From Rhizophagus irregularis (taxonomy: Eukaryota), in contig NC_089435.1 of the NCBI RefSeq assembly GCF_026210795.1, positions 372,001 to 436,000 of the forward strand: a stretch of DNA of 64,000 bases. The letters run 5' to 3'. The translations under genes were made by a program, and so were the position numbers. The notes under the pieces are model-generated. The model was not told where the DNA came from, did no database searches, and worked only from the letters and a program-made list of their open reading frames with translations. Positions 12,418 through 63,599 of this stretch are shown piece after piece. How positions within the stretch are numbered: position 1 is the first letter of the stretch; every line of letters begins with the position of its first letter.

Positions 12418-15400
12418 ATGGAAACCAAATTTAGTAAATCTAATATCTCAGTTGCTGATATAGTAAACACCAAAAATTGTTTATATTGCAATAAACCCTT
12501 TACTGAAGAATTATGGTGTAAAGAATGTATTAATTCTTTAGAAAAATCAGCAGAAAATGGTAATAAAGTAGCAATATTTAATTTAGCTAAAAGGTATTAC
12601 AATGGGGAAGGAACAGAAAAGAATTTAGAAAAAGCCTTTTATTGGTATCAAAAAGCAGCAGAAAATGGTGATGAAGAGGTAATGCATAATTTAGCTTTTT
12701 GTTATTACAATGGAGAAGGAACAGAAAAGAATTTGGAAAAAGCCTTTTATTGGTATCAAAAAGCAGCAGAAAATGGTTTCATTTATTCAATGCATAATTT
12801 AGCCTTACGTTATTACAATGGAGAAGGAACAGAAAAGAATTTAGAAAAAGCCTTTTATTGGTATCAAAAAGCAGCAGAAAATGGTTTCACTAATTCAATG
12901 CATAATTTAGCCTTTTGTTATGAAAATAAAGAAGGAACAGAAAAGAATTTAGAAAAAGCCTTTTATTGGTATCAAAAAGCAGCAGAAAATGGTTTCACTA
13001 ATTCAATGCATAATTTAGCCTTACATTATTACAATGGAGAAGGAACAGAAAAGAATTTAAAAAAGGCCTTTTATTGGTATCAAAAAGCAGCAGAAAATGG
13101 TTTCACTATTTCAATGCATAATTTAGCCTTTTGTTATGAAAATGGAGAAGAAACAGAAAAGAATTTAGAAAAAGCCTTTTATTGGTATCAAAAAGCAGCA
13201 GAAAATGGTGATGAAGAGGTAATGCATAATTTAGCCAATTGTTATTACAATGGAGAAGGAACAGAAAAGAATTTAGAAAAAGCCTTTTATTGGTATCAAA
13301 AAGCAGCAGAAAATGGTTTCACTATTTCAATGCATAATTTAGCATTACGTTATGAAAATGAAGAAGGAACAGAAAAGAATTTAGAAAAAGCCTTTTATTG
13401 GTATCAAAAAGCAGCAGAAAATGGTTTTACTATTTCAATGCATAATTTAGCCCTACATTATTACAATGGAGAAAGAACAGAAGAGAATTTAGAAAAAGCC
13501 TTTATTTGGTATCAAAAAGCAGCAGAAAATGGTTTCACTAATTCAATGCATAATTTAGCCTTACGTTATTACAATGGAGAAGGAACAGAAAAGAATTTAG
13601 AAAAAGCCTTTTATTGGTATCAAAAAGCAGCAGAAAATGGTTTCACTAATTCAATGCATAATTTAGCCTTATGTTATTACAATGGAGAAGGAACAGAAAA
13701 GAATTTAGAAAAAGCCTTTTATTGGTATCAAAAATCAGCAGAAAATGGTTTCACTAATTCAATGCATAATTTAGCCAATTGTTATTACAATGGAGAAGGA
13801 ACAGAAAAGAATTTAGAAAAAGCCTTTTATTGGTATCAAAAAGCAGCAGAAAATGGTTTCACTATTTCAATGCATAATTTAGCATTACGTTATTACAATG
13901 GAGAAAGAACAGAAGAGAATTTAGAAAAAGCCTTTATTTGGTATCAAAAAGCAGCAGAAAATGGTTTCACTAATTCAATGCATAATTTAGCCTTACGTTA
14001 TTACAATGGAGAAGGAACAGAAAAGAATTTAGAAAAAGCCTTTTATTGGTATCAAAAAGCAGCAGAAAATGGTTTCACTAATTCAATGCATAATTTAGCC
14101 GTATGTTATTACAATGGAGAAGGAACAGAAAAGAATTTAGAAAAAGCCTTTTATTGGTATCAAAAATCAGCAGAAAATGGTTTCACTAATTCGATGCATA
14201 ATTTAGCCTTTTGTTATGAAAATGGAGAAGGAACAGAAAAGAATTTAGAAAAAGCCTTTTATTGGTATCAAAAAGCAGCAGAAAATGGTTTGACTAATTC
14301 AATGTATAATTTAGCCTTTTGTTATGAAAATGAAGAAGGAACAGAAAAGAATTTAGAAAAAGCCTTTTATTGGTATCAAAAATCAGCAGAAAATGGTTTG
14401 ACTAATTCAATGCATAATTTAGCCTTTTGTTATGAAAATAAAAAAGGAACAGAAAAGAATTTAGAAAAAGCCTTTTATTGGTATCAAAAAGCAGCAGAAA
14501 ATGGTTTTACTGATTCAATGCATAATTTAGCCTTTTGTTATGAAAATGAAGAAGGAACAGAAAAGAATTTAGAAAAAGCCTTTTATTGGTATCAAAAAGC
14601 AGCAGAAAATGGTTTCACTAATTCAATGCATAATTTAGCCTTACATTATTACAATGGAGAAGTAATAGAAAAGAATTTAGAAAAAGCCTTTATTTGGTAT
14701 CAAAAAGCAGCAAAAAATGGTTTTACTGATTCAATGCATAATTTAGCCTTACGTTATTACAATGGAGAAGGAACAGAAAAGAATTTAGAAAAAGCCTTTT
14801 ATTGGTATCAAAAAGCAGCAGAAAATGGTTTCACTAATTCAATGCATAATTTAGCCTTATGTTATAACAATGGAGAAGGAATAGAAAAGAATTTAGAAAA
14901 AGCCTTTTATTGGTATCAAAAAGCAGCAGAAAATGGTTTTACTAATTCAATGTATAATTTAGCCTTACATTATTACAATGGAGAAGGAACAGAAAAGAAT
15001 TTAGAAAAAGCCTTTTATTGGTATCAAAAAGCAGCAGAAAGTTGTTTCACTAATTCAATGTATAATTTAGCCATTTGTTATGAAAATGGAGAAGGAACAG
15101 AAAAGAATTTAGAAAAAGCCTTTTATTGGTATCAAAAAGCAGCAGAAAATGGTTTCACTAATTCAATGTATATTTTAGCCTTTTGTTATGAAAATGGAGA
15201 AGGAACAGAAAAGAATTTAGAAAAAGCCTTTTATTGGTATCAAAAAGCAGTAGAAAATGGTGTTAAAGAGGCAATGCATAATTTAGCCTTACGTTATTAC
15301 AATGGAGAAGGAACAGAAAAGAATTTAGAAAAAGCCTTTTATTGGTATCAAAAAGCAGCAGAAAATGGTGAAAAAAAAGCAATGAATAATTTAGCCATAT

Positions 15401-17374
15401 GTTATTACAATGGAGAAGGAATAGAAAAAAATTTAGAAAAAGCTTTTTATTGGTATCTTAAATCAGCAGAAAATGGTTTCACTGATTCTATGTATAATTT
15501 AGCCTTACGTTATTACAATGGAGGAGGAACAGAAAAGAATTTAGAAAAAGCCTTTTATTGGTATCAAAAAGCAGCAGAAAATGGTTTCACTAATTCAATG
15601 TATAATTTAGCCTTTTGTTATGAAAATGGAGAAGGAACAGAAAAGAATTTAGAAAAAGCCTTTTATTGGTATCAAAAAGCAGCAGAAAATGATGTTGAAG
15701 CAATACATAATTTAGCCAATTCTTATTATAATGGAGAAGGAACAGAAAAGAATTTAGAAAAAGCCTTTTATTGGTATCAAAAAGCAGCAGAAAATGGTTT
15801 CACTAATTCAATGCATAATTTAGCCTTTTGTTATGAAAATGGAGAAGGAACAGAAAAGAATTTAGAAAAAGCCTTTTATTGGTATCAAAAAGCAGCAGAA
15901 AATGGTTTCACTAATTCAATGTATAATTTAGCCTTTTGTTATGAAAATGGAGTAGGAACAGAAAAGAATTTAGAAAAAGCCTTTTATTGGCGTCAAAAAG
16001 CAACAGAAAGTAACAAAATAGATTTTAAAAATGAAGTTGAATTATGCAATATATGCAAACAGCTATATACTAATTACCAGTGGTGTCAACAATGTAATGT
16101 CAAACAATTTCAACAAGATTTTTCAAAGTGGACCAGTAAAAATGAATTTATTGATAAATTTATTCAAGAAGCACAACTAAATGCCAAAAATAGTTATGAA
16201 ATTTTAGAATGGATACCTTATAATAAATTGTCAAATATCAATTATTATGATAAAGGAGGATTTAGTGAAATTCATAAAGCTATCTGGTTAGATGGTCCTA
16301 TTTTTAGTTGGAATTTTGACAAACAACAATGGAATAGACAATTAGGTTATGAGGTTATTCTTAAAACACTTAATAATTCATCAAGTTTAAATAGTAAATT
16401 TCTGGATGAGGTATATATATTATTTATATTTATTAGCAATTTTTTTTTCTTTTACAAAAATTAATTTTGTTTTATTATTTATACAGTGGAAATATCATTA
16501 TAATTGTCAGAAAAAATCATTTTCAAAATTTATTCAATTTTTTGGATGTACCCAAGATCCAAATAATTTAAATTATATAATAGTAATGAGTTATGCAAAA
16601 AAAGGAAGTTTAAGAAAATGTTTGTCTGATATAATTAAATTTAAATGGCAAGAAAAGTTACAATTATTGAAAAAAATTGTATTAGGGCTCAAAGTAATTC
16701 ATGAATCAAATTTAACTCATGGTGATTTTCATGATGGTAATATTTTAATATCAGATAATTACAATGAGTTATTTATTATTGATTTAGGATTATGTAAACC
16801 TATAAATGATTTACAAGATTCTGACAATAAAATTAAAGAAATTTATGGAGTTTTACCTTATATGGCACCTGAAACATTAAGACAAAAACCCTATACACCA
16901 GCAAGTGATATTTATAGTTTTTCAATGATAATGTGGGAATTTACATCAGGTATTCCTCCATTTAATCGTGTAGCACATGATCATCACCTTATTTTGAGTG
17001 TCTGTGAAGGGAAACGCCCTGAAATTGTTGAAAATACTCCAAAATGTTATATAGATTTAATGAAAAAATGTTGGGATTCAGATCCTTCCAATAGACCGAC
17101 CATAACAATGCTCGAAGATATTATATCTGAGTGGATTAGATGTATTAATGAATATTATAGAATAAACAGGGATGGAAATTATAAATTTGTAGTATCTAAT
17201 ATAGATAATAAATTAAAAGATGATATGTTTGAATTTATAAAAGCAAACAAAACTTTAGTACAAGAACAAGCAAATGCTTCTATTATACAATCACATACAC
17301 AAGCATATTATACAAGTCGTAAATTTACTGAAATCTTAAATACTGGTTGTCTTGAATGTGAAGTTAATATTTAA
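12418..17374 (+). CDS. SEL1-array + TKL-type protein kinase, paralog 1 (32 SEL1 repeats; ~1626 aa). Exons 12418-16410 and 16487-17374
   Basis: The two overlapping ORFs are joined by a phase-0 intron GTATAT...ATACAG (16411-16486). Order: CLYC...WCKEC, 32 x 36-aa SEL1 repeats, CNIC...WCQQC, WTSKNEFID, then kinase motifs KGGFSEI, VILK, HGDFHDGN, DLG, YMAPE, SDIYSF, CWDSDPSNRP. Confidence 0.92.
12571..16012 (+). repeat. Coding tandem array of 32 near-identical 108-bp SEL1 units
   Basis: Near-invariant core GGAACAGAAAAGAATTTAGAAAAAGCCTTTTATTGGTATCAAAAAGCAGCAGAAAATGGT recurring every 108 nt (one 105-nt unit). Confidence 0.95.
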
Positions 17375-22200: not shown

Positions 22201-23443
22201 TTATCTTGTAATTTGAAATACTTCATATTCTTCCACAGAAAATAAATCAGAAAATAAATCAGTAGTTTCACTGATTTGTTTTTCGTAAGCAAAATTACCA
22301 CATACATTTACCAAAATCTCCATCTAAAACCAAGTCACTGATACCAAATAATGGTCCACGATCAAAGGAGTTAAGTATAGCGACTTTTTCATTTTTTATA
22401 CGACTTAAAATATAACTTTTAATATCATTATATCTCTTAAACGAGAATATAAAACTGTCCTTAGTAGTGCCATAAGAATCATCAGACTTCCATTCAATTG
22501 GATTATATCCACCAAAAATTTCCTTACTGACTTTCACCTTAATAATTGTTACAGTACGAGATTGATTATCACAAATTTCATGAAATTTTTTATATGTAAA
22601 TCCATCACGAGATCCACAAAGTAACAATTTGAATTTGTATGTATTTTTTATCTCATCTGTAATTTCAGTTCTATCGATCCATTTTGAGATTAATTCAGCA
22701 TGTCGAATTGTAATAATTTTGGAATCAATGGAATCAATATTAATTTCTTCAGTAGTAATATGAGGTTTTGATGTTTTACTTGATTGGATACTGGGTTTCA
22801 AGAAATATTTTAATAAATCTTCATATAATTCCTTTAATATAATTTTTTTATAAGGCAATACTTTATCTGCAAATTCTTCAGAAGTTAAATTATAGAATCT
22901 AATATGTGGAACGCAATGTTATAAACTATTTTTCAAAGCATTAAAATCTTCTTTTGAAAAATTAGTAGGATCGGAAGGTTTTGGATTTTGAGCAAGTTTC
23001 CATCTAAGCACATTTTTCCATACTTGAATTTCATTCATTTGAAGATTATCACTTTGAATAAGTGAAACCAAAAGTTTTTCTGAAATTGAGGAAAAATTTA
23101 GAGATTTATATATCTTGTTTGGCTCTTTGGTTATTAAATTATTACAAAATTCTTAAAGTTCCAAGAAAGAATCATTCTCAAAACTTGTCTTATATATCAA
23201 ATCAAAATTAAATTCCATCCAATTTGCCTTAGTTTCAATCAAAAAGGATTGTAAATAAGTGGTTAATTCTTGGAGACCAAGTTCACTACCAGAAACTAAG
23301 ATATCCAAAGTATCATGCAGATATGCTTGATAGTTTTGTGTTACATGAAAAATAATGACATCATTGCAGATCTTGATAATTTACTCTTTTCCGTTAATAT
23401 AAAAAATTTTAAATATTTTTTTTGCTAAAGTTTTATTATCCAT
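22201..23443 (-). pseudogene. Decayed BTB-BACK-TLDc gene
   Basis: Recognisable BACK (ELGLQELTTYLQSFLIETKANWME; LQMNEIQVWKNVLRW) and TLDc (FKLLLCGSRDGF...FHEICDNQ...FGGYNPIEW...VEEYEVFQI) segments. In-frame TAA at 23153-23155 and 22919-22921, a frameshift near 22295, and most of the BTB region missing or garbled. Confidence 0.85.
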
Positions 23444-28995: not shown

Positions 28996-30453
28996 CTATT
29001 TTTTAATTACTTTAAATACTTCATAATCTTCTACTTCGAAATTTGTTGGGATTCCTATTTTAGAATAGCGATTTCCACTATCGTAATTATTATAACACCA
29101 ATTATTATTATAACAGGTTAAATTACCCATAGTTGGACCATGACTATCGCCACAAAAAACTGCAAGTTGTGAAGAATTAACATAACTTACTCTTGCAGCA
29201 TAAGTATTTTTTCCATTTGGAAAATTAAATAAAAAACTATCTGCTGTAGTTTTCCATGCCCAACTTACATCCCAATCAAGGGGATTGTATCCTCCAATTA
29301 ATTGTAATGAATTTTTAATTTTTGCTACCCAAATAGTAGCTCCTTTATTATCACAATTTTTATGAAAATCTTTAACATCATTTCCATCCTGACTTAAGCG
29401 ATATAATAATTCAAATTTATAAGGAATATTTTTTCTATTATAACATGAAGAACTTTTTTTGTCAATCCATGAAGCTAAAATAGAAACATTGTTTGGTTCA
29501 ATTAAAGTTGATTTAAAATTAGTTTTTCTTGAAGGTGTAAAATTGGATTTAGGTTTTATATTAGGAACAATATGAAATTCTAAAAGATCATGAATTAATT
29601 CCTGTGGTAAGATATCTTTATAACAATATACTTTATAAAAGAAATCTATGGGATCAATATCGTAAAATCGAATTAAAGGGATAAATCTTTGTAATGCCTT
29701 CTCGATCTTTGTAATATCTTCTTTATTCCATTTTGATGGTTCATTCTTTATATTTTGTTGAGTAAAACACCATTTTAACAAATTCTCCCAAATTTCAATT
29801 TCTTCCATATTTAAATCATCCCTTTTTAATAACGATTCTAATAAAGGAGCTTTTAAATAAATAAATCTATCAGAATTAAATAAAACTTGAGGTTCTTTAC
29901 AGATATTTTCAAGACAGAAATTCCATAAATCTGTAAATGTTTCATATTGATAAACAGTTTCAAGAATTTCAGTTGGATTTTGATATAAAAATTCAGTTTG
30001 ATGTTTAATCAAAAATTCTTGAATATGAGATACTAAAGGATGAAGATTAAGTTCATCAACTGCTATTAACAATTTCAATATGTCAGAACCTTGTAAATTC
30101 TTTAATTCAATATTTCCACAATAAAAAAACCTATTAATATAATGATTAATTAATTAAACTTTTTCTTTAAAAAAAAATATGATTATTAAAAATAAATACC
30201 TAAGAATAATATTAAATAATTGTGGAGAAATATTTGGTTTTTTGAAAATAAATTTTCCATCTTTCTTTTCAGCCCATTCATTAGAAAATGCAGAGCGAAA
30301 ATATTGAGACCTAATAGATAAAATATTAGAATGAGCATGAATTTCTTTAACATATTGCTCTTCACCAGCATAAATAATAACGTCATATCCAATTTCTGTT
30401 TCAAAAAGTTTTTCATAATCGCTAGATAATTCTGCCCAAAATTTTGAAGACAT
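28996..30453 (-). CDS. BTB/POZ-BACK-TLDc domain protein (462 aa). Exons 30200-30453 and 28996-30130
   Basis: MSSKFWAELSSDYEKLFETEIGYDVIIYAGEE...HAHSNILSIRSQYFRSAF (BTB). A GT-AG intron at 30131-30199 restores ILRFFYCGNIEL. BACK region follows, then TLDc (FELLYRLSQDG...FHKNCDNKGAT...IGGYNPLDW...VEDYEVFKV). Confidence 0.92.
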
Positions 30454-31053
30454 TGTTTTTAAATTTTTTAAATAATAAAGCAAGAAATGCAAAAAAAAAT
30501 GCAGGTAAAATTAAAGTTTGGGATACGAACGTCCTTTATTTATATTATGTTATGGTGATCATGTCTATAACCGAACACCCGTACTACCTAATATAGAATT
30601 CCAATGCCAATCATCTTCAATTTTGCTGTTACTGAGAAGTCTAACTACTACGGACGGATTTGCGTAATTTATAAATATTTTGAGTCAACGAAAATAGATT
30701 TATTTACAGAAGCTTTGCAGAAATAAATTTGGTTATAATTATCACCCGTATTATTTATAAGATGTAACCGTTATTTTGATGATAGATAAAATAATTTTAA
30801 CTACAAAAGCTGTTGTTTCAGTTATAAAAGATCAAATAAGAAATAATTTTATTATATATCCTTATAGGATCACACTGTATTTTTTTTACATTTATTGAAT
30901 AGCTTTATTGATGATATATATAATAAATGAATACTGTTTAAATCATTACAAATACATAATAAAATTAATAAAATTAGATTTTTATACAAATAGACTATAA
31001 ATTAACTCGTGACTGATTTAATAGTGTGATCGTGAGAGTCTATATAATAAAAC

Positions 31054-33873: not shown

Positions 33874-36800
33874 TTATTCTGATTGATTATAAAGGTTTAT
33901 TCCGATTGCACACTCTAAACATTCACTATATTTTGGAAGTTCTTTTGTAAAAGAATTAAGTATTCGAGATGTATAAATAGCCTGGAGATGAGTATCTGGT
34001 TGATTATTTTTATATATTCCATCATTGTTTAATCTATATTCTTCTGCTTCTTTAAATTGATCTTCGTAATTTGAATAAAATAGACTAATCATTTTTTCCA
34101 CCTCAGCAACATTGGGTCTATTAATTGGATTTAAATCCCAACACTTTTTCATTAAGTCAACATAACACTTAGGTGCTTCTGGCTTATTTATTTCAGGTCT
34201 AGTGCCATTACATATGTCTAATGCTAAAAACTCATCATGTGCACAATTTGCAAAAGGTTGTCTTTCAGTTGCTACAAAATACATAATCATTCCAAAACTA
34301 AATATATCTGCTGCTTTAGTATAAGGACCTCCTCTTAATACTTCAGGAGCTACATAAGGCATAACTCCATAAATTTTTGTTTCATCTACATTATCAACTT
34401 CTCCACATAATCCCATGTCAGAAATGTAATTTGAAGTAATCCAATAATAAGTATCCTTAAATAATATATTTCCTGTATGAAAATCACGATGAACCATATG
34501 CTTTTGATGTATCTCTTTAAGACCATTAATAATATTCTTTAATACTTTTAATTTATTTATCCATTCAAAATGCTTATAATTTTTCTTCATCCAATTGTTA
34601 AAATTTCCTCCTCTTGCATATTGTAGAACCATAACATAGGTTTTTGTATTAGGGTTCTGAGATATTCCATAAATTTTTAGAATTTCGCCAGAATTATTAA
34701 TATTATTGAGGTCATTAATTGAATATGCTTTAACCTAAAGATAAAGAATCAATTATATTCAAAAGAATTATATTTAAGTACAAAAGTTAAAAATTCTTTT
34801 ACCTCGTTAAAAAATTTATTAGAGAAGTTTTGTGAATTATTTAAACATTTTAAAGCCACTGTTTTATTAAAATCTCTTATATATTCCTTTTCATTCCAAC
34901 ATAATGGACCGTCCTTCCATCTTGCTGAATATACCTTAGCAAACCCACCTTTACCTATTTCTTTAATCTCATTGAACTGATCATAAGGTATCCATTCAAA
35001 TATTATGTCTTTATAATCATTAATTTTTAATTGCATTTCTTGAATTAATTTATCAATTTGTTCATTATCACTGGTCCAGTTTGTAAAATTTTCTTTTAAA
35101 TGATTTATTTGACATGATTTACACCATTTATACTTTGCATCTATGTATTTAATAGAACATTTATCACAAAAATATCTAAAATATTGATCATAACTAAAAA
35201 CTATGATGTAGTCTTTTGTATTGCGATTATGAGTTATTCCATATATTTCAAATTCGTCATAGCATGATGTAATCTATTAAGAAGAATATTAATACTTTAG
35301 AAAATGTTTGAAATAAATTTCTAGAAAACTTACGTACCTCATTCAAAAATTCGTTTGTAATATTTTCTGAATTAAATAAGTATTTTAAAGCAACAGTTTT
35401 ATCTGCTGTATTTCTTACATATTTCTTCTCATTCCAACGTAATGGACCATCCTTCCATCTTGCTGAATATGCTGTATTATTGCCTATTTTTTCAATATCA
35501 CTAAACTGATAATATGGTATCCATTCAAATATTATGTCTTTATAATCATTAATTTTTAATTGCATTTCTCGTATTAAATTATCAATCTGCTCATTTTCAC
35601 TGGTCCAGTTTGCGAAATTTTCTTTTAAATAATTTATTTGGCATAGTTTACACCATCTATACTTTGCACTTATGTATTTTCTAGCGCATTTATCACAAAA
35701 AATTCTAGAATATTGATCTTGATTAAGAATTAGGATGTAATCTTTTGTATTAGGATTTTGAGTTATTCCATATATTGTAAGAAGTTTGTCATAATATTCC
35801 ATAATCTATACATTAACAAAAAGTATTAATAATATAGAAATACTTGAAATAAAATATATAAAAACTTATATACCTCCTTTAAAAGTTTACTAGTAATATG
35901 TTGCGAATTAACTAAACATTTTAAAGTAACTATTTTATTCAATGAATTTCTTGTATATGTATTATTGTAATAATAATATGACAATGGTCCATCCTTCCAA
36001 CTTGCTAAATATACTGTATTGTTACTTGCTTCTTCAATTTCAATAAACTGATAATACGGTATCCACTCAAATATTGTATTCTTATAATTATTAATTTTTA
36101 ATTGCATTTCTTGAATTAAATTATCAATTTGTTCATTTTCGCTGGTCCAATTTATGAAATTCTTTTTTAGCCACTTTATTTGACATAGTTTACACCATTT
36201 ATACTCCATATTTACATATCTATTAGCACATTTATCACAAAAAATCTTAAGGTATTGATTTTCATCAAGGACTATAATGTAATCTTGTGTAATAGGATTT
36301 TGAGTTATTCCATATATTTTGAACTTGTCATAATATTCTACAATCTGTTAAAAAATTATTTATAATGTATATAAGAAGTATTTTTAAATCGAATTTATAG
36401 AAGAATTACATACCTCATTCAAAAGCTTATCAGTAATGTTTTGTGAATTGTTTAAATATTCTAAAATAACTACTTTATTTACTGAATTTCTTACATATTT
36501 CTTTTTATTCCAGTACAATGAACCTTCATTCCATTTTGCTGAATATACTAAATTATTTAATTCTTTAATATTATCAAACTGGCTATATGATATCCATTCA
36601 AATATTATATCTCTATGACTTTTAATTTTTAATTGCAGTTCTTGAATTAAGTCATCAATTTGTTTATTCTCACTGGTCCAGCTTGTAAAATTTTCTTCTA
36701 GCCAGCCTACTTGACATGGTTTGCACCATTTATATTCTGATTTTGTATAATACTCTTCACATTTTACACAGCAATTTTCCAAATATTGATCTTTATTAAA

Positions 36801-39800
36801 TATTATAATGTAATTCATTGTATTAGGATTTTGAGATATACCATATATTTTAACTTTATCATAATATGTTATAATCTATTGAAAAAAAAATCAATACTTT
36901 AGAAAACATTTGAAATAGATTTCTAGAAAACTTGCATACCTCATTTAAAAATTCATTTGTAATATTTTCTGAATTAATTAAGTATTTTAAAATAACTGCC
37001 TGATTTGCTGAATTCCTTGTGTATTTTTCTTTATAGTAATTATATAATAATGGACCATCCTTCCATTTTGCTGAATACACCATATTGTCTAATTCTTCAA
37101 TATTACTAAACTGATAGTAAGATATCCATTCAAATATTATATCTTTATAATCATTAACTTTTAATTGCATTTTTTGAATTAGTTTATCAATCTGTTTATT
37201 TTCACTGGTCCAGCTTGTGAAATATTTTTCAAAACAATTTATTTGACATGCTTTACACCATTTATACCATGACTTTGTGTAATATTTTCCACATTTTATA
37301 CAGCAATTTCCTAAATACTGATTTTTATTAATTATTATAATATAATCTTTTGTATTAGGACTTTGAGATATACCATATATTTTAACTTTATCATAATATG
37401 CTATAATCTATTAAAATAATAAGTATCAATATACTATAATTAGTTGAAATTAACTTCATAAAAAAATTTACATACCACATTTAAAAATTCATTTGTAACA
37501 TTTTGTGAATCAACTAAATATTTTAAAATAACTTCTTGATTTGCTAAATTTCTTGTATATTTATTTGCATAATAGACATATGATAATGGACCATCTTTCC
37601 ATTTTGCTGAATACACTTTATTATTACCTACTTCTTTAATATCACTAAATTGGTTATATGGTATCCATTCAAATATTACATCTTTATAATCATTAACATT
37701 TGATTGCATTTTTTGGATTAATTTGTCAATTTGTTTATTTTTACTAGTCCAGTTTGTAAAATTTTCTCTTAACCAATTTATTTGACATGGTTTGCACAAT
37801 TTATACTCTGATTTTGTGTAATACTTGTCGCACTTTATACAGCAATATTTTAAATATTGATCTTCATTAAATATTATAATGTAATCTTTTGTATTAGGAT
37901 GCTGAGATATACCATATGTTTCAATTTCATTATAATATGTTATTATCTATTAAATAATAATATTATATTAATATTACAAAAAATATTTGAAAATAAATTT
38001 ACAAAAAACTAATATATACTACCTTCAAAAATTCACTAGCAATATCTAGTGGATTGATTAAATATTTTAAAATAACTGCTTTATTTAAATCTTTATGCTT
38101 TTTTTCATTCCAATATAATAAACTATCTTTCCATTTTGCTGAATATATTTTATTGGTTAATTCAATAATATTATTAAACTGATTATATGGTATCCATTTA
38201 AATGTAATATCTTTATAATCATTTATTTCTAATTGTTTCTTTTGAATTAGGTTGTCAATTTTTTCATCTCCACTAGTCCAGTTCGTGAAATTTTCTTTTA
38301 GCCAGTTTATTTGACATGGTTTGCACCATTTATACTCTGATTTTGTGAAATATTTTTCGCATTTTATACAGTAATTTTTCAAATATTGATCTTTATTAAA
38401 TATCATAATGTAATCTTTTGTTTTAGGATTTTGTGACATACCATATATTTTAGCTTTATCATAATAAGCCATAATCTATTAAAAATGTATCAATATATTA
38501 TGTTGTACCGTAATGTACTTGAAATTAAATTCATAGAAAATTTACATACCTCATTTAGAAACTCATTAGTGATATTTTGTGAATTTACTAAATATTTTAA
38601 TACAACTGCAATATTTGTTAAATTTCTTGTATATTCATTCTTATAATAGTTGTTATATGATAATAAACCATCTTTCCATATTGCTAAATATGTTGTATTG
38701 CTTAATACTTTAATATCATTAAATTGATTGTATGATATCCATTCAAATATTATATCTTTATGATTATTAATATTTAGTAACTGCATTTTTTGAATTAAAC
38801 TATCAATTTGTTCATTCTTGCTGGTCCAGTTTGTGAAATTTTCTTTTAACCAATTAATTTTACATGGTTTACACCATTTATACTCTGATGTTGTGTAATA
38901 CTTTCCACATTTTATACAGCAATTTTCCAAATATTGATCTTTATTAAATATCATAATGTAATCTTTAGTATTAGGACTTTGTGATATACCATATATTTTA
39001 ACTTTATCATAATATGCTATAATCTATTGAAAAATTATTAACAATACAGAAAGTAGTAGAATTAAATTTATTAGAAAAACTTACATACCTCATTCAACAA
39101 TTCATTAGTAATATTTTTCGAATTAACTAAATATTTTAAAATAATTGGCTTATTTGCTGAATTTCTTGCATATTCATTTTTATAAAAATAGTTACTATAT
39201 GATAATGGGCCATCCCTCCATCTCGCTAAATATGCTATACTGCTTAATTCTTCAATATCATTAAACTGACAGTACGGTATCCATTCAAATATAATATCTC
39301 TATAATTACTAATTTTTAATTGCATTTTTCGAATTAGATTATCAATTTTTTCATTTTCACTGGTCCAATTTGTGAAATTTTCTTTTAACCAACTTATTTG
39401 ACAATGTTTACAACATTTATATCGTTTGTTCCATGCATTTGTGTAATACTTTCCACAATTTACACAGCAATCTTCTAAATATTGATCTTTATTGAATACT
39501 ATAATATAATCTTTTGTTTTAGGATTTTGAGATATGCCATATATTTTAAATTCACCATAAGTTGCCATAATCTATTGAAAAAAAATATTAATAATAGTAG
39601 AAATACTTGAATCAAAATATATAGAAATTTGTAATTTTGTATACCTTTTTCAGAAATTCATTCGTAATATTTTGTGAATTAACCAAATATTTTAAAATAA
39701 CGGATTTATTTGCTGAATTTCTTGCATATTCTTCATTATAATAGTTATATGATAATGGACCATTCTCCCATTTCGCTGAATATACTATATTATCTAATCT

Positions 39801-40526
39801 TTCGATATCATTGAACTGGTAATATGGTATCCATTCAGATATTGCATCTTCATAATCATTAATACTTAATTGTATCTCTTGAATTAAATTGTCAATTTGT
39901 TCATTTTCACTGGTCCAGTTCATGAAATTTTCTTTTAACCAATTTATTTGACATGGTTTACACCAGTTATACTCTGAATTTGTATAATACTTTCCACATT
40001 TTATGCATTTTCCATAAAAGATTTCAAAATTTTTTAATATAAAAAACTCAAAATCATTGTAATAATCCTCTATTTGGTATTGTCTGAACTGTATAAAAGC
40101 ACAAAATTATTATTATAATTACTGTATAGTAAAAAAAAAAAATTATTTAATTATAAAATTTCGTACCTTATTTAGACCTTTTAAAACTTCATTATATAAA
40201 TACACTTTTAAAGCAACTATCCTATTTGATTTTTTTATAAGTTCCTTTATATTCCAATTTAATGGACTAAATTTCCATATTGTTGAATATACCGCATTGC
40301 TTATTTCTTTAATTCTATCAAATTGATTGCATGAGATCCATTCAAACATTATATCTATGTAACAATTAATTTTTAATTGTATTTCTTGAATTAGATTATC
40401 AATATCTTTATTTCCACTAGTCCAGCTTGTAATTTGACATGTTTCACACCATTTATATTTAATATTTATGTACATATTGCCGCATTTTACACACTTGTTT
40501 GTGTTATTTGTTAATAAGTTCTGCAT
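33874..40526 (-). CDS. 12-exon protein (~1961 aa): 11 tandem Cys4 + kinase N-lobe modules ending in one complete TKL-type kinase
   Basis: Exons 40167-40526, 39645-40088, 39089-39571, 38550-39023, 38023-38475, 37476-37946, 36940-37407, 36414-36875, 35874-36344, 35338-35805, 34803-35273, 33874-34734. All introns are GT-AG and every exon length is a multiple of 3. The terminal kinase has GKGGFAKVY, VALK, HRDFHTGN, DMG, YVAPE, ADIFSFG, CWDLNPINRP. Confidence 0.8.
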
Positions 40527-48399: not shown

Positions 48400-51300
48400 T
48401 TAAATTTTAATTACACATTCAAAACACTCAGAATTTTCTTGAACTAAGATTTCAGTAAGTCTGCGACTTGTATAATATGCTTGTGAATGAGATTGTATAA
48501 TAGCAGTATTTGCTTGTGGATGATATTGTATAATAGAAGTATTTGCTTGTTCTTGTACTAAAGTTTTGTTTGCTTCTACAAATTCAATCATATCATCTTT
48601 TAATTGATCATCAACATTAGATACCTTAAATTTATAATCTCCATCCCTGTTTATTTCATAATATTCATTAATACATCTAATCCATTCAGATATAATATTT
48701 TCAAGCATTCCTATAGTTGGTCTATTGGAGGGATTTGAATCCCAACATTTTTTCATTAAATCTATATAACATTTTGGAGTATTTTTTATGATTTCAGGAC
48801 GTTTCCCTTTACAAATATTCAAGGTAAGGTGATGATCATGTGCCTCATGATTAAATGGAGGAATACCTGATGTAAATTCCCACATTATCATTGAAAAACT
48901 ATAAATATCACTTGCTGGAGTATAAGGTTTCATTCTTAATATTTCTGGTGCCATATAAGGCAAAACTCCATAAATTTCATTAATTTTATTATCAGTATCT
49001 TGCAAATCATTCATAGGCTTACATAATCCCATATCAATAATAAATAACTCATTGTAATTATCTGACATTAAAATATTACCATCATGAAAATCACCATGAG
49101 TTAAATTTGATTCATGAATTACTTTAAGTCCTAATATAATTGTTTTCAACAATTGTAACTTGTCTTGCCATTTAAATTTAATTATATCAGATAAGCATTT
49201 TCTCAAACTTCCTTTTTTTGCATAACTCATTACTATTATATAATTTAAATTATTTGGATCTTGGGTAAATCCAAAGAACTGAATAAATTTTGAAAATGAT
49301 TTTTTCTGACAATTATAATGATATTTCCACTATATAAATAAAAAAAAATCATTAAAGTTTTGCAAAAGATTATAAAATTTGCTATTAAATAAAAATACTA
49401 TACCTCATTCAGAAATTTACTATTTAAATTTGATGAATTATTAAGTGTTTTAAGAATGACTTCATAACCTGTTTGAAAATTACATCTATTCCATTGTTGT
49501 TTGTCAAAATTCCAACTAATAATAGGTCCATCTAACCAGATAGCCTTATAAATTTCGCCAAATCCTCCTTTATCATAATAATTAATATTTGACAATTTAT
49601 TATATGGTATCCATTCTAAAATTTCATAACTATTTTTAGCATTTAATTGTGCTTCTTGAATAAATTTATCAATAAATTCATTTTCGCTAGTCCACTTTAA
49701 AAAGTCTTGTTGGAATCGTTTAATATTACATTTTTGGCACCACTGGTAATCATTATATGGTTGCTTGCATTCATTACATAATTCAGCTTCATTTTTAAGA
49801 CCCACTTTGTTACTTTCAACTATTTTTTGATGCCAATAAAATGCTTTTTCTAAATTCTTTTCTGTTCCTTCTCCATTTTCATAACATAAGGTTAATAAAA
49901 ACATTGCGGTAGTATGTCCATTTTCTGCTGCTTTTTGATACCAATGAAAGGCTTTTTCTAAATTATTTTCTATTCCTTCTCCTTTAATATACATACAGGC
50001 TGAGTAAAACATTGCATCAGTATGTCCATTTTGTGCTGCTCTTTGATACCAATAAAATGCTTTTTCTAAATTCTTTTCTGTTCCTTTTCCTTCTTTATAA
50101 CATATGGCTAAACTATTCATTGCTTTAATATGATCTTTTTCTGCTGCTTTTTGATACCAGTGAAAAGCTTTTTCTAAATTTTTTTCTGTTTCTTCTCCAT
50201 TATTATACATGATGGCTAGATTAAACATTGCATTTTCATCATTTTTTGCCGCTTTTTGATACCAATAAAAGGCTTTTTCTAAATTCTTTTCTGTTCCTTC
50301 TCCTTTTTTATAATAAATGGCTAAATTGAACATTGCATTAGTATGTCCATTTTCTGCTGCTTTTTGATACCAATGAAAGGCTTTTTCTAAATTATTTTCT
50401 ATTCCTTCTCCTTTAATATACATACAGGCTGAGTAAAACATTGCATCAGTATGTCCATTTTGTGCTGCTCTTTGATACCAATAAAATGCTTTTTCTAAAT
50501 TCTTTTCTGTTCCTTTTCCTTCTTTATAACATATGGCTAAACTATTCATTGCTTTAATATGATCTTTTTCTGCTGCTTTTTGATACCAGTGAAAAGCTTT
50601 TTCTAAATTTTTTTCTGTTTCTTCTCCATTATTATACATGATGGCTAGATTAAACATTGCATTTTCATCATTTTTTGCCGCTTTTTGATACCAATAAAAG
50701 GCTTTTTCTAAATTCTTTTCTGTTACTTCTCCTTTTTTATAATATATGGCTAAATTACTCATTGCTTCTTCAATACCATTTTCTGCTGCTTTTTGATAAC
50801 AATGAAAGGCTTTTTCTAAATTCTTTTCTATTCCTTCTCCATTTTCATAACATACGGCTAAATTAAACACTGCATAAGTATGTCCATTTTCTGCTGCTTT
50901 TTGAAACAAATGAAAGGCTTTTTCTGAATTCTTTTCTGTTCCTTTTCCATTATAATAACATGTAGCTAAGTTAAATATTGCTTCTTTAACACCATATTCT
51001 GCTACTTTTTTATACCAATAAAATGCTTTTTCTAAATTCTTTACTGTTCCTTTTCCTTCTCCATAACATATGGCTAAATTATTCATTGCTCCTTCAACAC
51101 CATTTTCAGCTGCTTTTTGATACCAATAAAAGGCTTTTTCTAAATTCTTTTCTGTTCCTTCTCCTTTTTTATAATAAATGGCTAAATTGAACATTGCATT
51201 AGTATGTCCATTTTCTGCTGCTTTTTTATACCAATGAAAAGCTTTTTCTAATTTTTTTTCTGTTCCTTCTCCATCATAATAACACATGGCTAAATAAACC

Positions 51301-52328
51301 ATTGCAATAGTATATCCATTTTCTGCTGCTTTTTGATACCAATAAAAGGCTTTTTCTAAATTCTTTTCTGTTCCTTCTCCATTATTATACATGATGGCTA
51401 AATTAGACATTGCATTAGTATGTCCATTTTCTGCTGCTTTTTTATACCAATAAAAGGTTTTTTCTAAATTCTTTTCTGTTCTTTCTCCATAATTATACAT
51501 ACTGGCTAAATTAAACATTGCATTAGCATATCCTTTCTCTGCTGCTTTTTGGTACCAATAAAAGGCTTTTTCTAAATTTTTTTTTGTTCCTTCTCCATTA
51601 TAATATTTATCGGCTAAATTAAAACTTGCTTCAATATGGTCTTTTTCAGCTGCTTTTTGTATCCAATAAAAGGCTTTTTCTAAGTTCTTTCCTGTTCCTT
51701 CTCCTATATAATAACACACTTCTAAATTAAACATTGCATTAGTATATCCATTTTCTGCTGCTTTTTGATACCAATAAAAGGCTTTTTTTGAATTCTTTTC
51801 TGTTCCTTCTCCATTTTTATACATACAGGCTAAATTAAAAATTGCTTCAATATAGTCTTTTTTGGCCGCTTTTTGCATCCAATAAAAGGCTTTTTTTAAA
51901 TTCTTTTCTGTTCCTTCTCCAGTATAATGATATATGGCTAAATTAAAAATTGCTTCAATATGGTCTTTTTCAGCTGCTTTTTGTATCCAATAAAAGGCTT
52001 TTTCTAAATTCTTTTCTGTTTCTTCTCCATTATAATATATACTGGCTAGTTTAAACATTGCATCTTCATCATCATTTTCTGCTGCTTTTTGAAACCAATT
52101 AAGGGCTTTATTTAAATTCTTTTCTGTTCCTTTTCCATAATAATAACTATTGGCTAAATTAAACATTGCTACTATATTACCACTTTCTGCTAATTTTTCC
52201 AACGAATTAATACATTCTTTACACCACAATTTTTCAGTAAAAGGCTTATTGCAATATAAACAATTTTTGATGTTTATTAAATTAGTATCTTTATCTGAGA
52301 TATTTGATTTACTAAATTTAGTAACCAT
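48400..52328 (-). CDS. SEL1-array + TKL-type protein kinase, paralog 2 (~22 SEL1 repeats; ~1284 aa). Exons 49404-52328 and 48400-49329
   Basis: Same architecture and same phase-0 intron (49330-49403, after FLNE) as paralog 1. Kinase motifs KGGFGEI, VILK, HGDFHDGN, DMG, YMAPE. Confidence 0.92.
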
Positions 52329-53519
52329 TTGGTTTTATTTTTGAGATAAATTTTGCTAAAATTTTATTTTTTTAAAAATTTTTTTTCTCGTTCAATGAAT
52401 GAGTTACTAGAAGGGAAAATTTTAATTAAAAGTAGAAGTTACGACAAAAAATTTTTTCGGACATATTTTTCCGATGCACTGATCTGCGTTGAGAAATGTT
52501 GCACTTCTACACAATAATGTATTTAATGTGACACAGAATGTTACGATTGGAATTATGTTTTACCATTCATGTGATTTTAATAAAAGGAAGGAAAAAAAGT
52601 TTTCTCACAAAATGAATATATAGAAATAATATAATAGATTAATTAAAGAATTTTAAAAACTTTTTTGTTATAGTTTTAAAAATATTATTAATATCGAATG
52701 TGTAACTCTTTCCGTCGATCATCAGTCCAAAAAATTCTCAGAACGAAAAAATAGACGGAGTGCTAAAAGTTATTTTTTAAAGATTTTTTACGTATTTCTG
52801 ACATTTTATTCACTTTTTTAAGAAGCTGTAGATATGTTTTTTTTCTCAAAAGTTATAAGTAGTTTATAGATTAATTGCCATTGACCAGGTTCGCAGGAAA
52901 TTACTTAAAAAGCTGGCATGGGCAAAGGTTTTTTAAGGAGCAGTCTTGAAAAGAAGCAACCAGGACCAATAAATAAATTAACCACTTTCACCTTACTTGT
53001 TTATGGGCTTTGGTTACTTGGACTCGGAACTTTTCCGTCTTTTTTCGCTTTTTTTTCGGTGGCGCAGCACAACGTAGTCCGAATTTCGGCAAGAAATTTT
53101 ACCGATGACGTAGTCCCAAGTGTAGATAGGTGTTGCTTAAACCTGTTTTCAATCTAAAGTATGCAGACTTGTAAGAAACCATACATGTATGAATTTTTAG
53201 CATAAGAATAAATAACATAATACATGACGATCAATCAATACATGATCATAAAACACGGTTTAATAATTTCTATTTATTAAACCAAAAACGAAAAAAAATT
53301 AAACTTTCTAATTCTTTGCGTAGCTTTATATTTTCTAATTCTAGTTTTTCAACTTCTGCTAGAGCTCTATGATTTGCTGTTTGTCTTTCAGCCAATGTTC
53401 TTTAATTTCTATTTGTAAAATAGTACACGTTTTCACTTCTACTTCTTTTATATATTATAAATATGATAAATAACTTGCAAATAAAGAAACTAAGTCCAAT
53501 TTAATAAATACACAATTAT

Positions 53520-53628
53520 TATAAATCAACCTATAAATCAATATAACAATTAATAATATATATGCATAATTTTATTATAAATCAACCTATAAATCAATAT
53601 AACAATTAATAATATATATGCATAATTA
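53520..53628. repeat. Tandem duplication, two copies of ~52 bp
   Basis: TATAAATCAACCTATAAATCAATATAACAATTAATAATATATATGCATAATT occurs twice, ~57 nt apart. Confidence 0.8.
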
Positions 53629-61353: not shown

Positions 61354-63294
61354 TTAATCTTCAATTACACAATCAAAACCCTGAGTCTCTTGAACTAAAA
61401 TTTCACTAAGTTTGCGACTTGTATAATGTGCTTGTGGATGAGATTGTATAATAGAAGCATTTACTTGTTCTTGCACTAAAGATTTGTTTGCCTCAACAAA
61501 TTCCAACATAACATCTTCTAATTGATTATCAACATTAGGTACAACATATTCATAATCTCCATTACTATTTATTCTATAATAATCACTAATACATCCAATC
61601 CATTCAGATATAATATTCTCAAGCATTATTATAGTTGGTCTATTAGCAGGATCTGAATCCCAACATTTTTTCATTAAATCCACATAGCATTTTGGAGTAT
61701 TTTCTATAATTTCAGGACGTTTCCCTCCACAAATACTCAAGATAAGCTTAAAATCATGTGCTTCATAATTAAATGGAGGAATACCTGATGTAAATTCCCA
61801 CATTATCATTGAAAAACTATAAATATCGCTTGTTGGAGCGTAGGGTTTTTTTCTTAATATTTCAGGAGCCATATAAGGTAAAACTCCATAAATTTCATTA
61901 ATTTTATTAGCAGTATCACTTATGGGTTTACATAATCCTAAATCAATAATAAATAACTCATTTTGATTATCTGACATTAAAATATTACCATCATGAAAAT
62001 CACCATGAGTTAAATTTGATTCATGAATTACTTTGAGTCCTAATCAATAAATGTAATCTGTCTTGCCACTTAAATTTAATTATATCAGATAAACATTTTC
62101 TCAAACTTCCTTTTTTTGCATAACTCATTACTATTATATAATTTAAACTATTTGGATCTTTAGTAATTCCACAGAATTGAATAAATTTTGAAAATGATTT
62201 TTTTTGACAGGTATAATGATATTTCCACTATATAAATAATAAAAAAATTATTAAATTTTTGCAAGAGAAAATAAATTAGCTATAAAATAATATAAATAAC
62301 ATACCTCCTCCAGAAATTTATCATTTAAATTTGATGAATTATTAAGTGTTTTAAGAATAACCTCATAACCTGTTTGAAAATTACATCTATTCCATTGTTT
62401 TTTGTCAAAATTCCAACTAAAAATAGGTCCATCTAACCAGATAGCTTTATGAATTTCACTAAATCTTCCTTTATCATAATAATTAATACTTGACAATTTA
62501 TCATAAGGTATCCATTCTAAAATTTCATAACTATTCTTAGCTTTTAATTGTGCTTCTTGAATAAATTTATCAATAAATTCATTTTTACTAGTCCACTTTG
62601 AAAAATCTTGTTGAAATTGTTTAGTATTACATTGTTGGCACCACTGGTAATAAGTATATGGTTGCTTGCATTCATTACATAATTCACCAGCTTCATTATT
62701 ATAACTTACTTCATTACTTCTTGTTGCTCTTTGTTGCCAATAAAAGGCTTTTTCTAAATTCTTTTCTGTTCCTTCACCATTATAATACATACCAGCTAAA
62801 TTATTCATTGTACTAGTATTACCATGTTCTGCTGCATTTTGATACCAAGAAAAGGCTTTTTCTAAATTCTTTTCCGTTCCTTCTCCACTATAACAACACA
62901 TGGCTAAATTAAACATTGCTTCTTTAACACCGTTTTCTGCTGCTTTTTGATACCAATAAAAGGCTTTTTCTAAATTCTTTTCTATTCCTTCTCCATATTC
63001 ATAACATACGGCTAAATTATTCATTGCATCTGCATCACCATTTTCTGCTGCTTTTTTATACCAGTAAAAAGCTTTTTCTAAATTCTTTTCCGTTCCATTT
63101 CCACCTTCATAACGTATGGCTAAATTAAATATTGCTTCTCTATTACCATTTTCTGCTAATTTTTCTAAAGAATTAATGCATTCTTTACACCATAATTCAT
63201 TAGTAAAAGGTTTACTGCAATATAAACAATTTTCGTTATTTATTGTATTGATATCATTATTTGAAATATTTAAATTGCTAAATTTCGTTCCCAT
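61354..63294 (-). pseudogene. SEL1-array + kinase, paralog 3 (4 SEL1 repeats), frameshifted in the kinase. Exons 62305-63294 and 61354-62227
   Basis: Same architecture and intron as paralogs 1 and 2. Exon 2 is 874 nt (not a multiple of 3): about 11 nt are missing near 62045 relative to the paralogs, upstream of HGDFHDGN. The Gly loop reads KGRFSEI. Confidence 0.8.
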
Positions 63295-63599
63295 TTTTTA
63301 TTTAGAAACTTATTTTATTGAAAGAATTTATTTTTTTTTGACAAATTTTTTTTTATATTTTATTGAGTTTACTAAAAAGGAATACTTGAACCAAAAGTAG
63401 AAGTCACAACAAAAAAAAAAAATTTTTTCGGGTCATATTTTTTCCGATAAACTAATCTGCGACGAGTTAAAATCATAGATAAATATCTATAATAAAATAT
63501 TGAATTTTTCAAAAATTAATCTTGTTATTTTTTTACATTAAGATTATTTGATCATATAATTTTAAAAAAAAATTAAGCGAATGTAAGCGAATTCATTAT

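What the first reader, a model, noticed from the sequence alone, without database searches (positions are those of the whole stretch)
34735..40166. All 11 introns are phase 0 at the same codon: a plug-and-play exon cassette
Seen: exon lengths 360, 444, 483, 474, 453, 471, 468, 462, 471, 468, 471 and 861 are all multiples of 3. Every donor follows the FLNE-like motif. Inference: any internal exon can be skipped, duplicated or lost without a frameshift. Any module could be spliced directly onto the C-lobe exon, swapping the beta1-beta3 half of the kinase; skipping exon 11 would yield a kinase lacking the Gly loop. This offers a route to combinatorial isoforms or rapid copy-number change. The short (~65-80 nt) introns argue for constitutive splicing, so this is only a possibility.
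Basis: partly seen in the sequence, partly recalled or inferred. Interest (0 to 1): 0.7.

Follow-up and report, generated by a model that had tools for sequence, protein, structure and literature searches.

The report
Kinase carrying ten dead N-lobe copies
A kinase gene of a mycorrhizal fungus holds eleven related exons, each followed by an intron at the same spot, a pattern that likely comes from repeated copying of one exon with its intron; the predicted product is one working kinase behind ten half-kinase units that lack the ATP-binding loop and would act as binding or control modules, not as swappable parts.

Summary
Observation confirmed: 12 exons, 11 GT-AG introns of 64-78 nt, all phase 0, all at or within a codon of the alphaC glutamate. 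It is one event, not eleven. Single-lobe kinases in the same window carry the same intron and introns 2-10 resemble each other. Copying one exon with one intron always gives frame-symmetric exons. The gene is a Rhizophagus irregularis tyrosine-kinase-like kinase (public model EXX63697.1) from a large Glomeraceae family with 1-19 tandem N-lobes. The Gly loop is kept in 136 of 141 lobes next to the C-lobe but in 10 of 772 internal lobes, so any skip onto the last exon would likely give a dead kinase. The exon border cuts the predicted alphaC helix. Lobe number changes in DNA at family level, but this gene's modules are old (63-83% nt identity). Splicing itself could not be tested. The splicing cassette is unsupported; the interesting part is the array of folded pseudo-N-lobes, which no Pfam model covers and my searches did not find in print.

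The parts
33874..40526 (-). Whole gene: 12 exons, 1962 codons; ten pseudo-N-lobe units, then one complete tyrosine-kinase-like kinase
   Evidence: public model P0192 (EXX63697.1, 1902 aa) is identical over residues 60-1962 except one codon at the exon 5 donor
40167..40526 (-). Exon 1 (360 nt): CxxC/CxxC ribbon, helix, beta1-beta3 without Gly loop, first half of alphaC
   Evidence: the public model starts at a later Met in this exon
40089..40166 (-). Intron 1 (78 nt, phase 0); not detectably like the other introns
39645..40088 (-). Exon 2 (444 nt), module with a degenerate beta4-beta5 head
39572..39644 (-). Intron 2 (73 nt, phase 0)
39089..39571 (-). Exon 3 (483 nt), module: alphaC tail, beta4-beta5, Cys4 ribbon, two helices, beta1-beta3, alphaC head
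39024..39088 (-). Intron 3 (65 nt, phase 0)
38550..39023 (-). Exon 4 (474 nt), module
38476..38549 (-). Intron 4 (74 nt, phase 0); its last base, 38476, reads differently in one contig of run X7 (acceptor AG to AA), unconfirmed
38020..38475 (-). Exon 5 (456 nt, or 453 nt with the upstream GT of the GTAGTA donor), module
37947..38019 (-). Intron 5 (73 or 76 nt, phase 0)
37476..37946 (-). Exon 6 (471 nt), module
37408..37475 (-). Intron 6 (68 nt, phase 0)
36940..37407 (-). Exon 7 (468 nt), module
36876..36939 (-). Intron 7 (64 nt, phase 0); closest to intron 10
   Evidence: z 12-14
36414..36875 (-). Exon 8 (462 nt), module; beta3 Lys replaced by Glu
36345..36413 (-). Intron 8 (69 nt, phase 0)
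35874..36344 (-). Exon 9 (471 nt), module
35806..35873 (-). Intron 9 (68 nt, phase 0)
35338..35805 (-). Exon 10 (468 nt), module; loop GNNTAY, three residues short, no Gly loop
35274..35337 (-). Intron 10 (64 nt, phase 0)
34803..35273 (-). Exon 11 (471 nt): beta4-beta5 of pseudo-lobe 10, Cys4 ribbon, and beta1-alphaC of the true kinase N-lobe (GKGGF, VALK, FFNE)
34941..34955 (-). The only intact Gly loop of the gene (GKGGF)
   Evidence: sequence
34735..34802 (-). Intron 11 (68 nt, phase 0), the ancestral alphaC intron of the kinase; not detectably like introns 2-10
33874..34734 (-). Exon 12 (861 nt): alphaC tail, beta4-beta5, hinge and C-lobe (HRD, DMG, APE)
   Evidence: Pfam PF07714 E 7e-32

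Best explanation
The shared phase is likely a by-product of tandem duplication, in DNA, of one unit (an exon plus the kinase family's single alphaC intron), and the gene is likely spliced constitutively into one long protein: ten predicted folded N-lobe units without a Gly loop, which would serve as binding or control modules, ahead of one probably active tyrosine-kinase-like kinase. Steps. (1) Shown: the ancestral intron sits after the alphaC glutamate in phase 0 in single-lobe relatives too. (2) Shown by similarity: exons 1-11 and introns 2-10 are copies. (3) Follows by arithmetic: copies of one intron share one phase, so the exons between them are multiples of three; this symmetry is what let the array grow without frameshifts. 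(4) Predicted: the protein repeat is shifted against the exon; each lobe takes beta1-beta3 and half of alphaC from one exon and the rest of alphaC with beta4-beta5 from the next. (5) Shown in sequence: only the lobe next to the C-lobe keeps the Gly loop; internal lobes keep the fold residues and the Cys4 ribbon under purifying selection. (6) Inferred, untested: the array works as an N-terminal sensor or docking region, in the place where sister kinases carry Sel1 repeats, and gates or recruits partners to the kinase.
For: Same intron, same codon, phase 0 in all three Sel1-repeat kinases of the window (FLDE|W, FLNE|W; FLEE in the third) and in tandem modules of metagenome loci L001 and L002. 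Intron interiors 2-10 alike. Family: Gly loop in 136 of 141 terminal and 10 of 772 internal lobes (a looser pattern gave 135 of 143 and 67 of 1098); internal full-length loops carry mostly Asn or Asp at the second Gly; beta3 Lys 99% terminal, 85% internal; alphaC Glu 95% and 58%; four Cys in 719 of 743 modules. dN/dS between this gene's exons 0.31-0.70, median 0.48, 45 pairs. AlphaFold models: P0121, mean pLDDT 84.7, pTM 0.80, helix 69-81 spans the exon 10/11 junction after residue 76; P0035, five lobes, each with the same strand-helix order, pLDDT 83.7, pTM 0.54. Kinase closest to TAK1, RIPK1, Roco4 by sequence. Skipping goes with short exons and long introns, and frame-preserving bias was absent in nearly all non-animals, in a 65-species study that included R. 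irregularis data (PMC6142364). Ortholog-like sets at 93-99% identity mostly keep their lobe number.
Against: No junction was seen in RNA, so constitutive splicing and expression are inferred. All homologous proteins are gene predictions and can be wrong (another public model of this very locus, P0033, invents introns inside modules). No region of the modules shows dN/dS above 1 (0.21-0.62), so the sensor idea has no support from diversifying selection. One contig in run X7 has lost the intron 4 acceptor, which fits relaxed constraint as well as tolerated skipping. The lobe identity of the internal units rests on sequence similarity and predicted secondary structure; a structural alignment of a lone internal unit was not obtained. 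Kinase activity is untested (DMG in place of DFG).
Confidence: 0.65

Rival explanations
1. The gene is a regulated exon-skipping cassette that makes isoforms with different numbers of lobes or different N-lobe halves on the C-lobe.
For: All skips are in frame. Because the intron is at one homologous point, a skip joins two half-lobes into a chimeric but complete lobe. Exon skipping exists at low level in fungi (PMC6142364). The unconfirmed acceptor loss in X7 has no in-frame AG downstream within 150 nt of the donor, so skipping exon 5 would be the only frame-keeping outcome.
Against: Introns 64-78 nt around exons of 444-483 nt. None of the ten alternative halves has a Gly loop, so skips onto exon 12 would likely be catalytically dead. 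Symmetry needs no selection for splicing.
Confidence: 0.1
2. The gene is a silent or decaying accessory paralog; the array is neutral growth allowed by the symmetric intron and does nothing.
For: Kinase genes of this fungus are high-copy, strain-specific and more methylated than core genes (PMC8647823, passages). No model from another isolate at 90% identity or more turned up. One contig of X7 has lost an acceptor. dN/dS near 0.5 is only moderate.
Against: 1962 codons without a stop, 22 intact splice sites, modules at dS about 0.5 yet all in frame; 719 of 743 family modules keep four Cys; the same layout in R. irregularis, R. clarus, R. diaphanus and Glomus cerebriforme.
Confidence: 0.17
3. 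The array is a fast DNA accordion: unequal recombination between modules changes exon number among nuclei or isolates on short time scales.
For: Family range 1-19 lobes; 33 of 298 multi-lobe proteins have an internal pair at 90% or more, 15 at 95% or more; P0233 shows a three-module period; P0218 and P0359 are 98.8% identical and differ by two whole modules; 142 of 750 modules have their nearest neighbour in the same protein against 0.7% by chance.
Against: In this gene the best pair is 83% nt and 76% aa. The 32 listed long contig pieces from four runs of four studies match the window with no other letters, though none spans the gene. Five of seven close sets keep lobe number throughout or differ only by a later start; a sixth differs by a truncated model.
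Confidence: 0.08

Closest known systems
Expanded tyrosine-kinase-like (PF07714) kinases of Glomeromycotina, including Sel1-repeat kinases
   Same: Same kinase domain, same Cys4 ribbon and pre-kinase helix, same alphaC intron. The expansion is described (PMC6123716, PMC8647823, PMC10234402; passages read).
   Different: Here the N-terminal repeat is the kinase's own N-lobe, ten times over. The passages read describe gene counts and methylation, not this layout; Pfam has no model that passes its cut-off on any of exons 1-11.
Wheat tandem kinase RWT4/WTK3 with its partial kinase duplication (KDup, pseudo-kinase fragment)
   Same: A non-catalytic copy of the N-terminal part of the protein's own kinase, placed in front of it; in RWT4 it is needed for effector binding (10.1101/2024.04.30.591956, passages; PMC12365797, passages).
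   Different: One fragment in a plant immune receptor that also has a full pseudokinase; here ten or more units with a Cys4 ribbon, one C-lobe, in a fungus; no ligand known; homology to RWT4 was not tested, so this is an analogy.
Symmetric (phase 0-0) exon duplication in modular proteins (concept recalled, not from a call)
   Same: Frame-neutral exons multiplied in tandem.
   Different: In the textbook case exon and domain coincide; here the intron cuts the predicted alphaC helix, so the exon is a circular shift of the folded unit.
TAK1, RIPK1 and Roco4 kinase domains
   Same: Best sequence matches among solved structures (E 1e-21 to 4e-17); Foldseek also returns JAK, RAF, RIPK folds.
   Different: The matches cover the kinase domain only; no solved structure matched the array (TM-score to the five-lobe model at most 0.24).

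Membership tests
Tyrosine-kinase-like protein kinase (PF07714), catalytically competent | Domain score above the Pfam cut-off | tested here: met
   P0192 residues 1562-1830, 130.7 bits against 23.1
Tyrosine-kinase-like protein kinase (PF07714), catalytically competent | Gly loop, beta3 Lys, alphaC Glu, HRD with Asn, DFG-like Asp, APE | tested here: met
   GKGGF, VALK, FFNE, HRDFHTGN, DMG, APE in exons 11-12
Tyrosine-kinase-like protein kinase (PF07714), catalytically competent | Phosphotransfer activity | not testable with these tools
   needs an assay
Alternatively spliced cassette-exon array | Exons symmetric in phase | tested here: met
Alternatively spliced cassette-exon array | Short exons, long flanking introns | tested here: not met
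   exons 444-483 nt, introns 64-78 nt; association from PMC6142364
Alternatively spliced cassette-exon array | Alternative exons each supply a working variant of the part | tested here: not met
   0 of 10 internal lobes of this gene and 10 of 772 in the family have a Gly loop
Alternatively spliced cassette-exon array | Skip junctions in RNA | not testable with these tools
   only assembled contigs that run through introns could be laid
Symmetric exon-module duplication (exon equals domain) | Exons and flanking introns are copies of one unit | tested here: met
   exons 63-83% nt identical; introns 2-10 alike
Symmetric exon-module duplication (exon equals domain) | Exon borders fall between folded domains | tested here: not met
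   junction after residue 76 lies inside predicted helix 69-81 of P0121
Plant tandem kinase proteins with an integrated kinase fragment | Non-catalytic partial copy of the own kinase N-terminus | tested here: met
Plant tandem kinase proteins with an integrated kinase fragment | Two full kinase or pseudokinase domains | tested here: not met
   one C-lobe here; 1 of 155 C-lobe-bearing homologs has more than one
Plant tandem kinase proteins with an integrated kinase fragment | Fragment binds a foreign effector and triggers defence | not testable with these tools
   no ligand known

The most novel reading that the evidence does not exclude
Glomeraceae have turned the kinase N-lobe into a repeat domain of its own: hundreds of kinases carry arrays of up to 18 folded, ATP-blind lobes that act as decoys or sensors for kinase-targeting proteins of plants, bacteria or rival fungi, a fungal counterpart of the integrated kinase fragment of wheat RWT4, with the symmetric alphaC intron letting array length be tuned in DNA and, where an acceptor is lost, by in-frame skipping.
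Probability: 0.2. Interest if true: 0.8.

Novelty: new variant of a known kind. Interest (0 to 1): 0.42.

Why it matters
The phase pattern itself is ordinary. What it marks is a repeat architecture shared by a large share of the expanded kinases of arbuscular mycorrhizal fungi, whose purpose is an open question: 354 clusters matched one module in proteins of 274-2000 aa. Recognising the pseudo-N-lobe as a repeat domain gives a handle for annotation (current models mis-splice it and name it after yeast kinases) and a testable idea for how these kinases take in signals. It also shows how one intron inside a fold can make half a domain multiply.

Tried and rejected
No whole genome was held for the window, so paralog introns could be read only in the window and in metagenome contigs. 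Sequencing runs: no RNA holder listed; this is no evidence on expression. X13, guessed to be RNA, runs unspliced through introns in its listed pieces and was treated as DNA. The joints listed had 21-35 letters on the short side at 88% likeness and appear in DNA runs alike; rejected as paralog noise, not deletions or splicing. The X7 acceptor variant rests on one contig and was not confirmed in a second run. Metagenome scan: 3 of 10 loci were true family members (L001-L003); L004-L010 were weak matches (E 3e-5 to 3e-4); L004 was read and is unrelated, L005-L010 were not read. Module tree is the quick version, 9 of 65 inner branches at 95 or more: internal modules of P0001 group together, most else is unresolved; used only as a lead. 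A gradient of identity with distance from the kinase is slight (0.56 to 0.53): a 'conveyor belt' of freshly decaying copies was rejected. Diversifying selection by region: none. VIA-align structure searches did not run, so no independent structural match for a lone internal unit. ESM Atlas (homologue P0043) returned only clusters of the same family. Earlier findings of the scan: nothing. Literature searches for the architecture gave no paper that, by listing or passages read, describes it; the library lacks most subscription papers, and supplements were not opened. No complex prediction was run, as no partner is known.
Full report
What is there. The region 40526-33874 on the minus strand is one gene of 12 exons. 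Scanning for donors and testing every AG 40-170 nt downstream gave exons of 360, 444, 483, 474, 456, 471, 468, 462, 471, 468, 471 and 861 nt and GT-AG introns of 64-78 nt, all phase 0; the joined frame has 1962 codons and one stop. A public model, P0192 (EXX63697.1, Rhizophagus irregularis, 1902 aa), uses the same eleven introns and is letter for letter the same from residue 60 on, save that one codon. It is a prediction too; a second public model of the locus, P0033, keeps several of the same junctions but invents introns inside modules.

Is it more than chance? Only if the introns were independent. They are not. Exons 1-11 are 63-83% identical in DNA, and the interiors of introns 2-10 align with each other well above shuffles (z about 2-14; introns 7 and 10 at 12-14), while introns 1 and 11 do not. 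The three Sel1-repeat kinases in the same window, each with a single N-lobe, have an intron after the same alphaC glutamate in phase 0, and so do tandem modules in two metagenome contigs, L001 and L002. So one ancestral intron was copied along with an exon. Copies of one intron share a phase whatever that phase is, and the exons between them must be multiples of three if the frame is kept. The pattern is the footprint of the duplication and the reason it was tolerated; it needs no selection for alternative splicing.

What the exons encode. Each internal exon reads: second half of alphaC, beta4-beta5, a CxxC...CxxC ribbon, two helices, the FEWIPY motif, beta1-beta2, a hairpin insert, beta3, first half of alphaC (element names follow the standard kinase fold, from my own knowledge, placed with the models). 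In the AlphaFold model of P0121, the last 519 residues of this gene (77 sequences, mean pLDDT 84.7, pTM 0.80), the unit before the kinase has the same strand and helix order as the true N-lobe, and the exon 10/11 junction after residue 76 falls inside helix 69-81. A five-lobe R. clarus homolog, P0035, gives five such units (pLDDT 83.7; pTM 0.54, so their relative placing is uncertain). The exon is thus a circular shift of the folded unit. The kinase proper keeps GKGGF, VALK, the alphaC Glu, HRD, DMG and APE, passes PF07714, and is closest to TAK1, RIPK1 and Roco4 among solved structures. Foldseek matches cover the kinase domain only. No Pfam model reaches its cut-off on exons 1-11.

The family. 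One module found 354 clusters among proteins of 274-2000 aa; the named ones among the 120 listed are all Rhizophagus or Glomus. The 50% library gave 1699 hits, 162 at 1e-30. Among 356 stored proteins, 338 have at least one lobe and the count runs from 1 to 19 (P0033 and P0121 left out as other models of this locus). There are two kinds, a 157-residue unit with the Cys4 ribbon and a 128-residue unit without. In 141 proteins with one terminal lobe, the Gly loop is present in 136 of 141 terminal and 10 of 772 internal lobes; a looser pattern on 199 proteins gave 135 of 143 and 67 of 1098. Most internal loops are full length with Asn or Asp at the second Gly; in this gene they are shortened by three or four residues. 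The four Cys are present in 719 of 743 modules with all four columns filled, of 787 found. Between this gene's exons 2-11 dN/dS is 0.31-0.70, median 0.48, and no region exceeds 0.62. The internal lobes look like maintained folds that cannot bind ATP in the usual way.

Splicing. But the only Gly loop is in exon 11, so any other module spliced onto exon 12 would likely give a dead enzyme; there is no catalytic variety to be had. The layout, long exons and very short introns, is the reverse of what goes with skipping: in a 65-species study whose data list includes R. irregularis, skipping was tied to shorter exons and longer flanking introns, retention exceeded skipping in all but one species, and a frame-preserving bias was lacking in nearly all non-animals (PMC6142364; section 5 and passages read; species-level values are in figures and supplements I did not see). 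Retaining any of the eleven introns stops the frame within 5-26 codons. I could not observe a junction, so constitutive splicing is inferred.

Copy number. In the family it changes, sometimes recently: 33 of 298 multi-lobe proteins hold a pair of lobes at 90% identity or more, P0233 has a three-module period, and P0218 and P0359, 98.8% identical, differ by 250 residues, two whole units (they may be neighbours in one assembly or two models). Against speed: of seven close sets, four keep the same count throughout (9/9, 9/9/9/9, 12/12, 6/6/6/6, the last including R. diaphanus at 93%), one is 9/9/9/8 with a later start, one 17/17/14 with a truncated model. In this gene the best pair is 76% aa. The 32 long contig pieces listed for four runs from four studies match the window with no other letters (one has a gap), but none spans the gene. 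One lead: in run X7 the single contig over position 38476 (depth 156, like its single-copy pieces) reads T for C, which turns the intron 4 acceptor AG into AA; the next AGs are out of frame. It is unconfirmed.

How it most likely works. Shown: duplication of exon plus intron; loss of the Gly loop everywhere but next to the C-lobe; purifying selection. Predicted: folded lobes across exon borders. Inferred: one long constitutive product in which the array stands where sister kinases have Sel1 repeats and serves for binding or control of the kinase. The nearest worked example is wheat RWT4, where a partial copy of the kinase N-terminus is needed to bind a fungal effector (10.1101/2024.04.30.591956 and PMC12365797, passages); that is an analogy only. 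The rival that the gene is a silent accessory copy is real: kinase genes of this fungus are high-copy and more methylated than core genes (PMC8647823, passages), and no model from another isolate at 90% or more was found (cluster representatives can hide members).

Known or new. The kinase expansion is known (PMC6123716, PMC8647823, PMC10234402; passages; 2,533 kinase genes in the last), and PMC8778642 (passages) notes only Sel1-bearing MLKL-like homologs. Eight searches of the open library showed no description of tandem pseudo-N-lobes; subscription papers and supplements were not seen, so this is weak. Verdict: the phase-0 cassette is real but ordinary; the array it built is a new variant of a known kind, with an untested function. 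Interest 0.42.

Noticed in passing
window 38476: One contig of run X7 reads C>T here, which removes the AG acceptor of intron 4; no in-frame AG follows within 150 nt of the donor. Unconfirmed.
   Followed up: partly
window 12412-17374 (+), 48400-52334 (-), 61354-63297 (-): Three Sel1-repeat kinases (32, 22 and 4 Pfam stretches) with the same ribbon, N-lobe and alphaC intron; the first has 108-nt repeats at 91% match, a likely faster accordion than the gene studied.
   Followed up: partly
window about 62040-62050 (-): The third Sel1 kinase changes frame between RLHLL and LGLKVIH in its second exon: probably a broken copy.
   Followed up: partly
proteins P0202, P0205, P0218, P0233: A second subfamily with about 128-residue units and no Cys4 ribbon, up to 19 lobes; P0233 repeats in blocks of three.
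   Followed up: partly
L003 723-1131: Two near-identical tandem modules whose first copy lacks beta3-alphaC and the usual donor; how it is spliced is unclear.
   Followed up: no
P0033 (GBC22728.2): A public model of this locus drops about 750 residues through introns placed inside modules; repeat kinases of this family are probably often mis-modelled.
   Followed up: yes
window 28996-30510 (-), 22295-22918 (-), 8712-10259 (-), 6294-8123 (+): BTB-BACK-TLDc gene, a TLDc frame, a Sel1 protein and a 609-codon frame with no Pfam hit: a neighbourhood of expanded families.
   Followed up: no
window 53516-53627: Perfect 56-bp tandem duplication.
   Followed up: no
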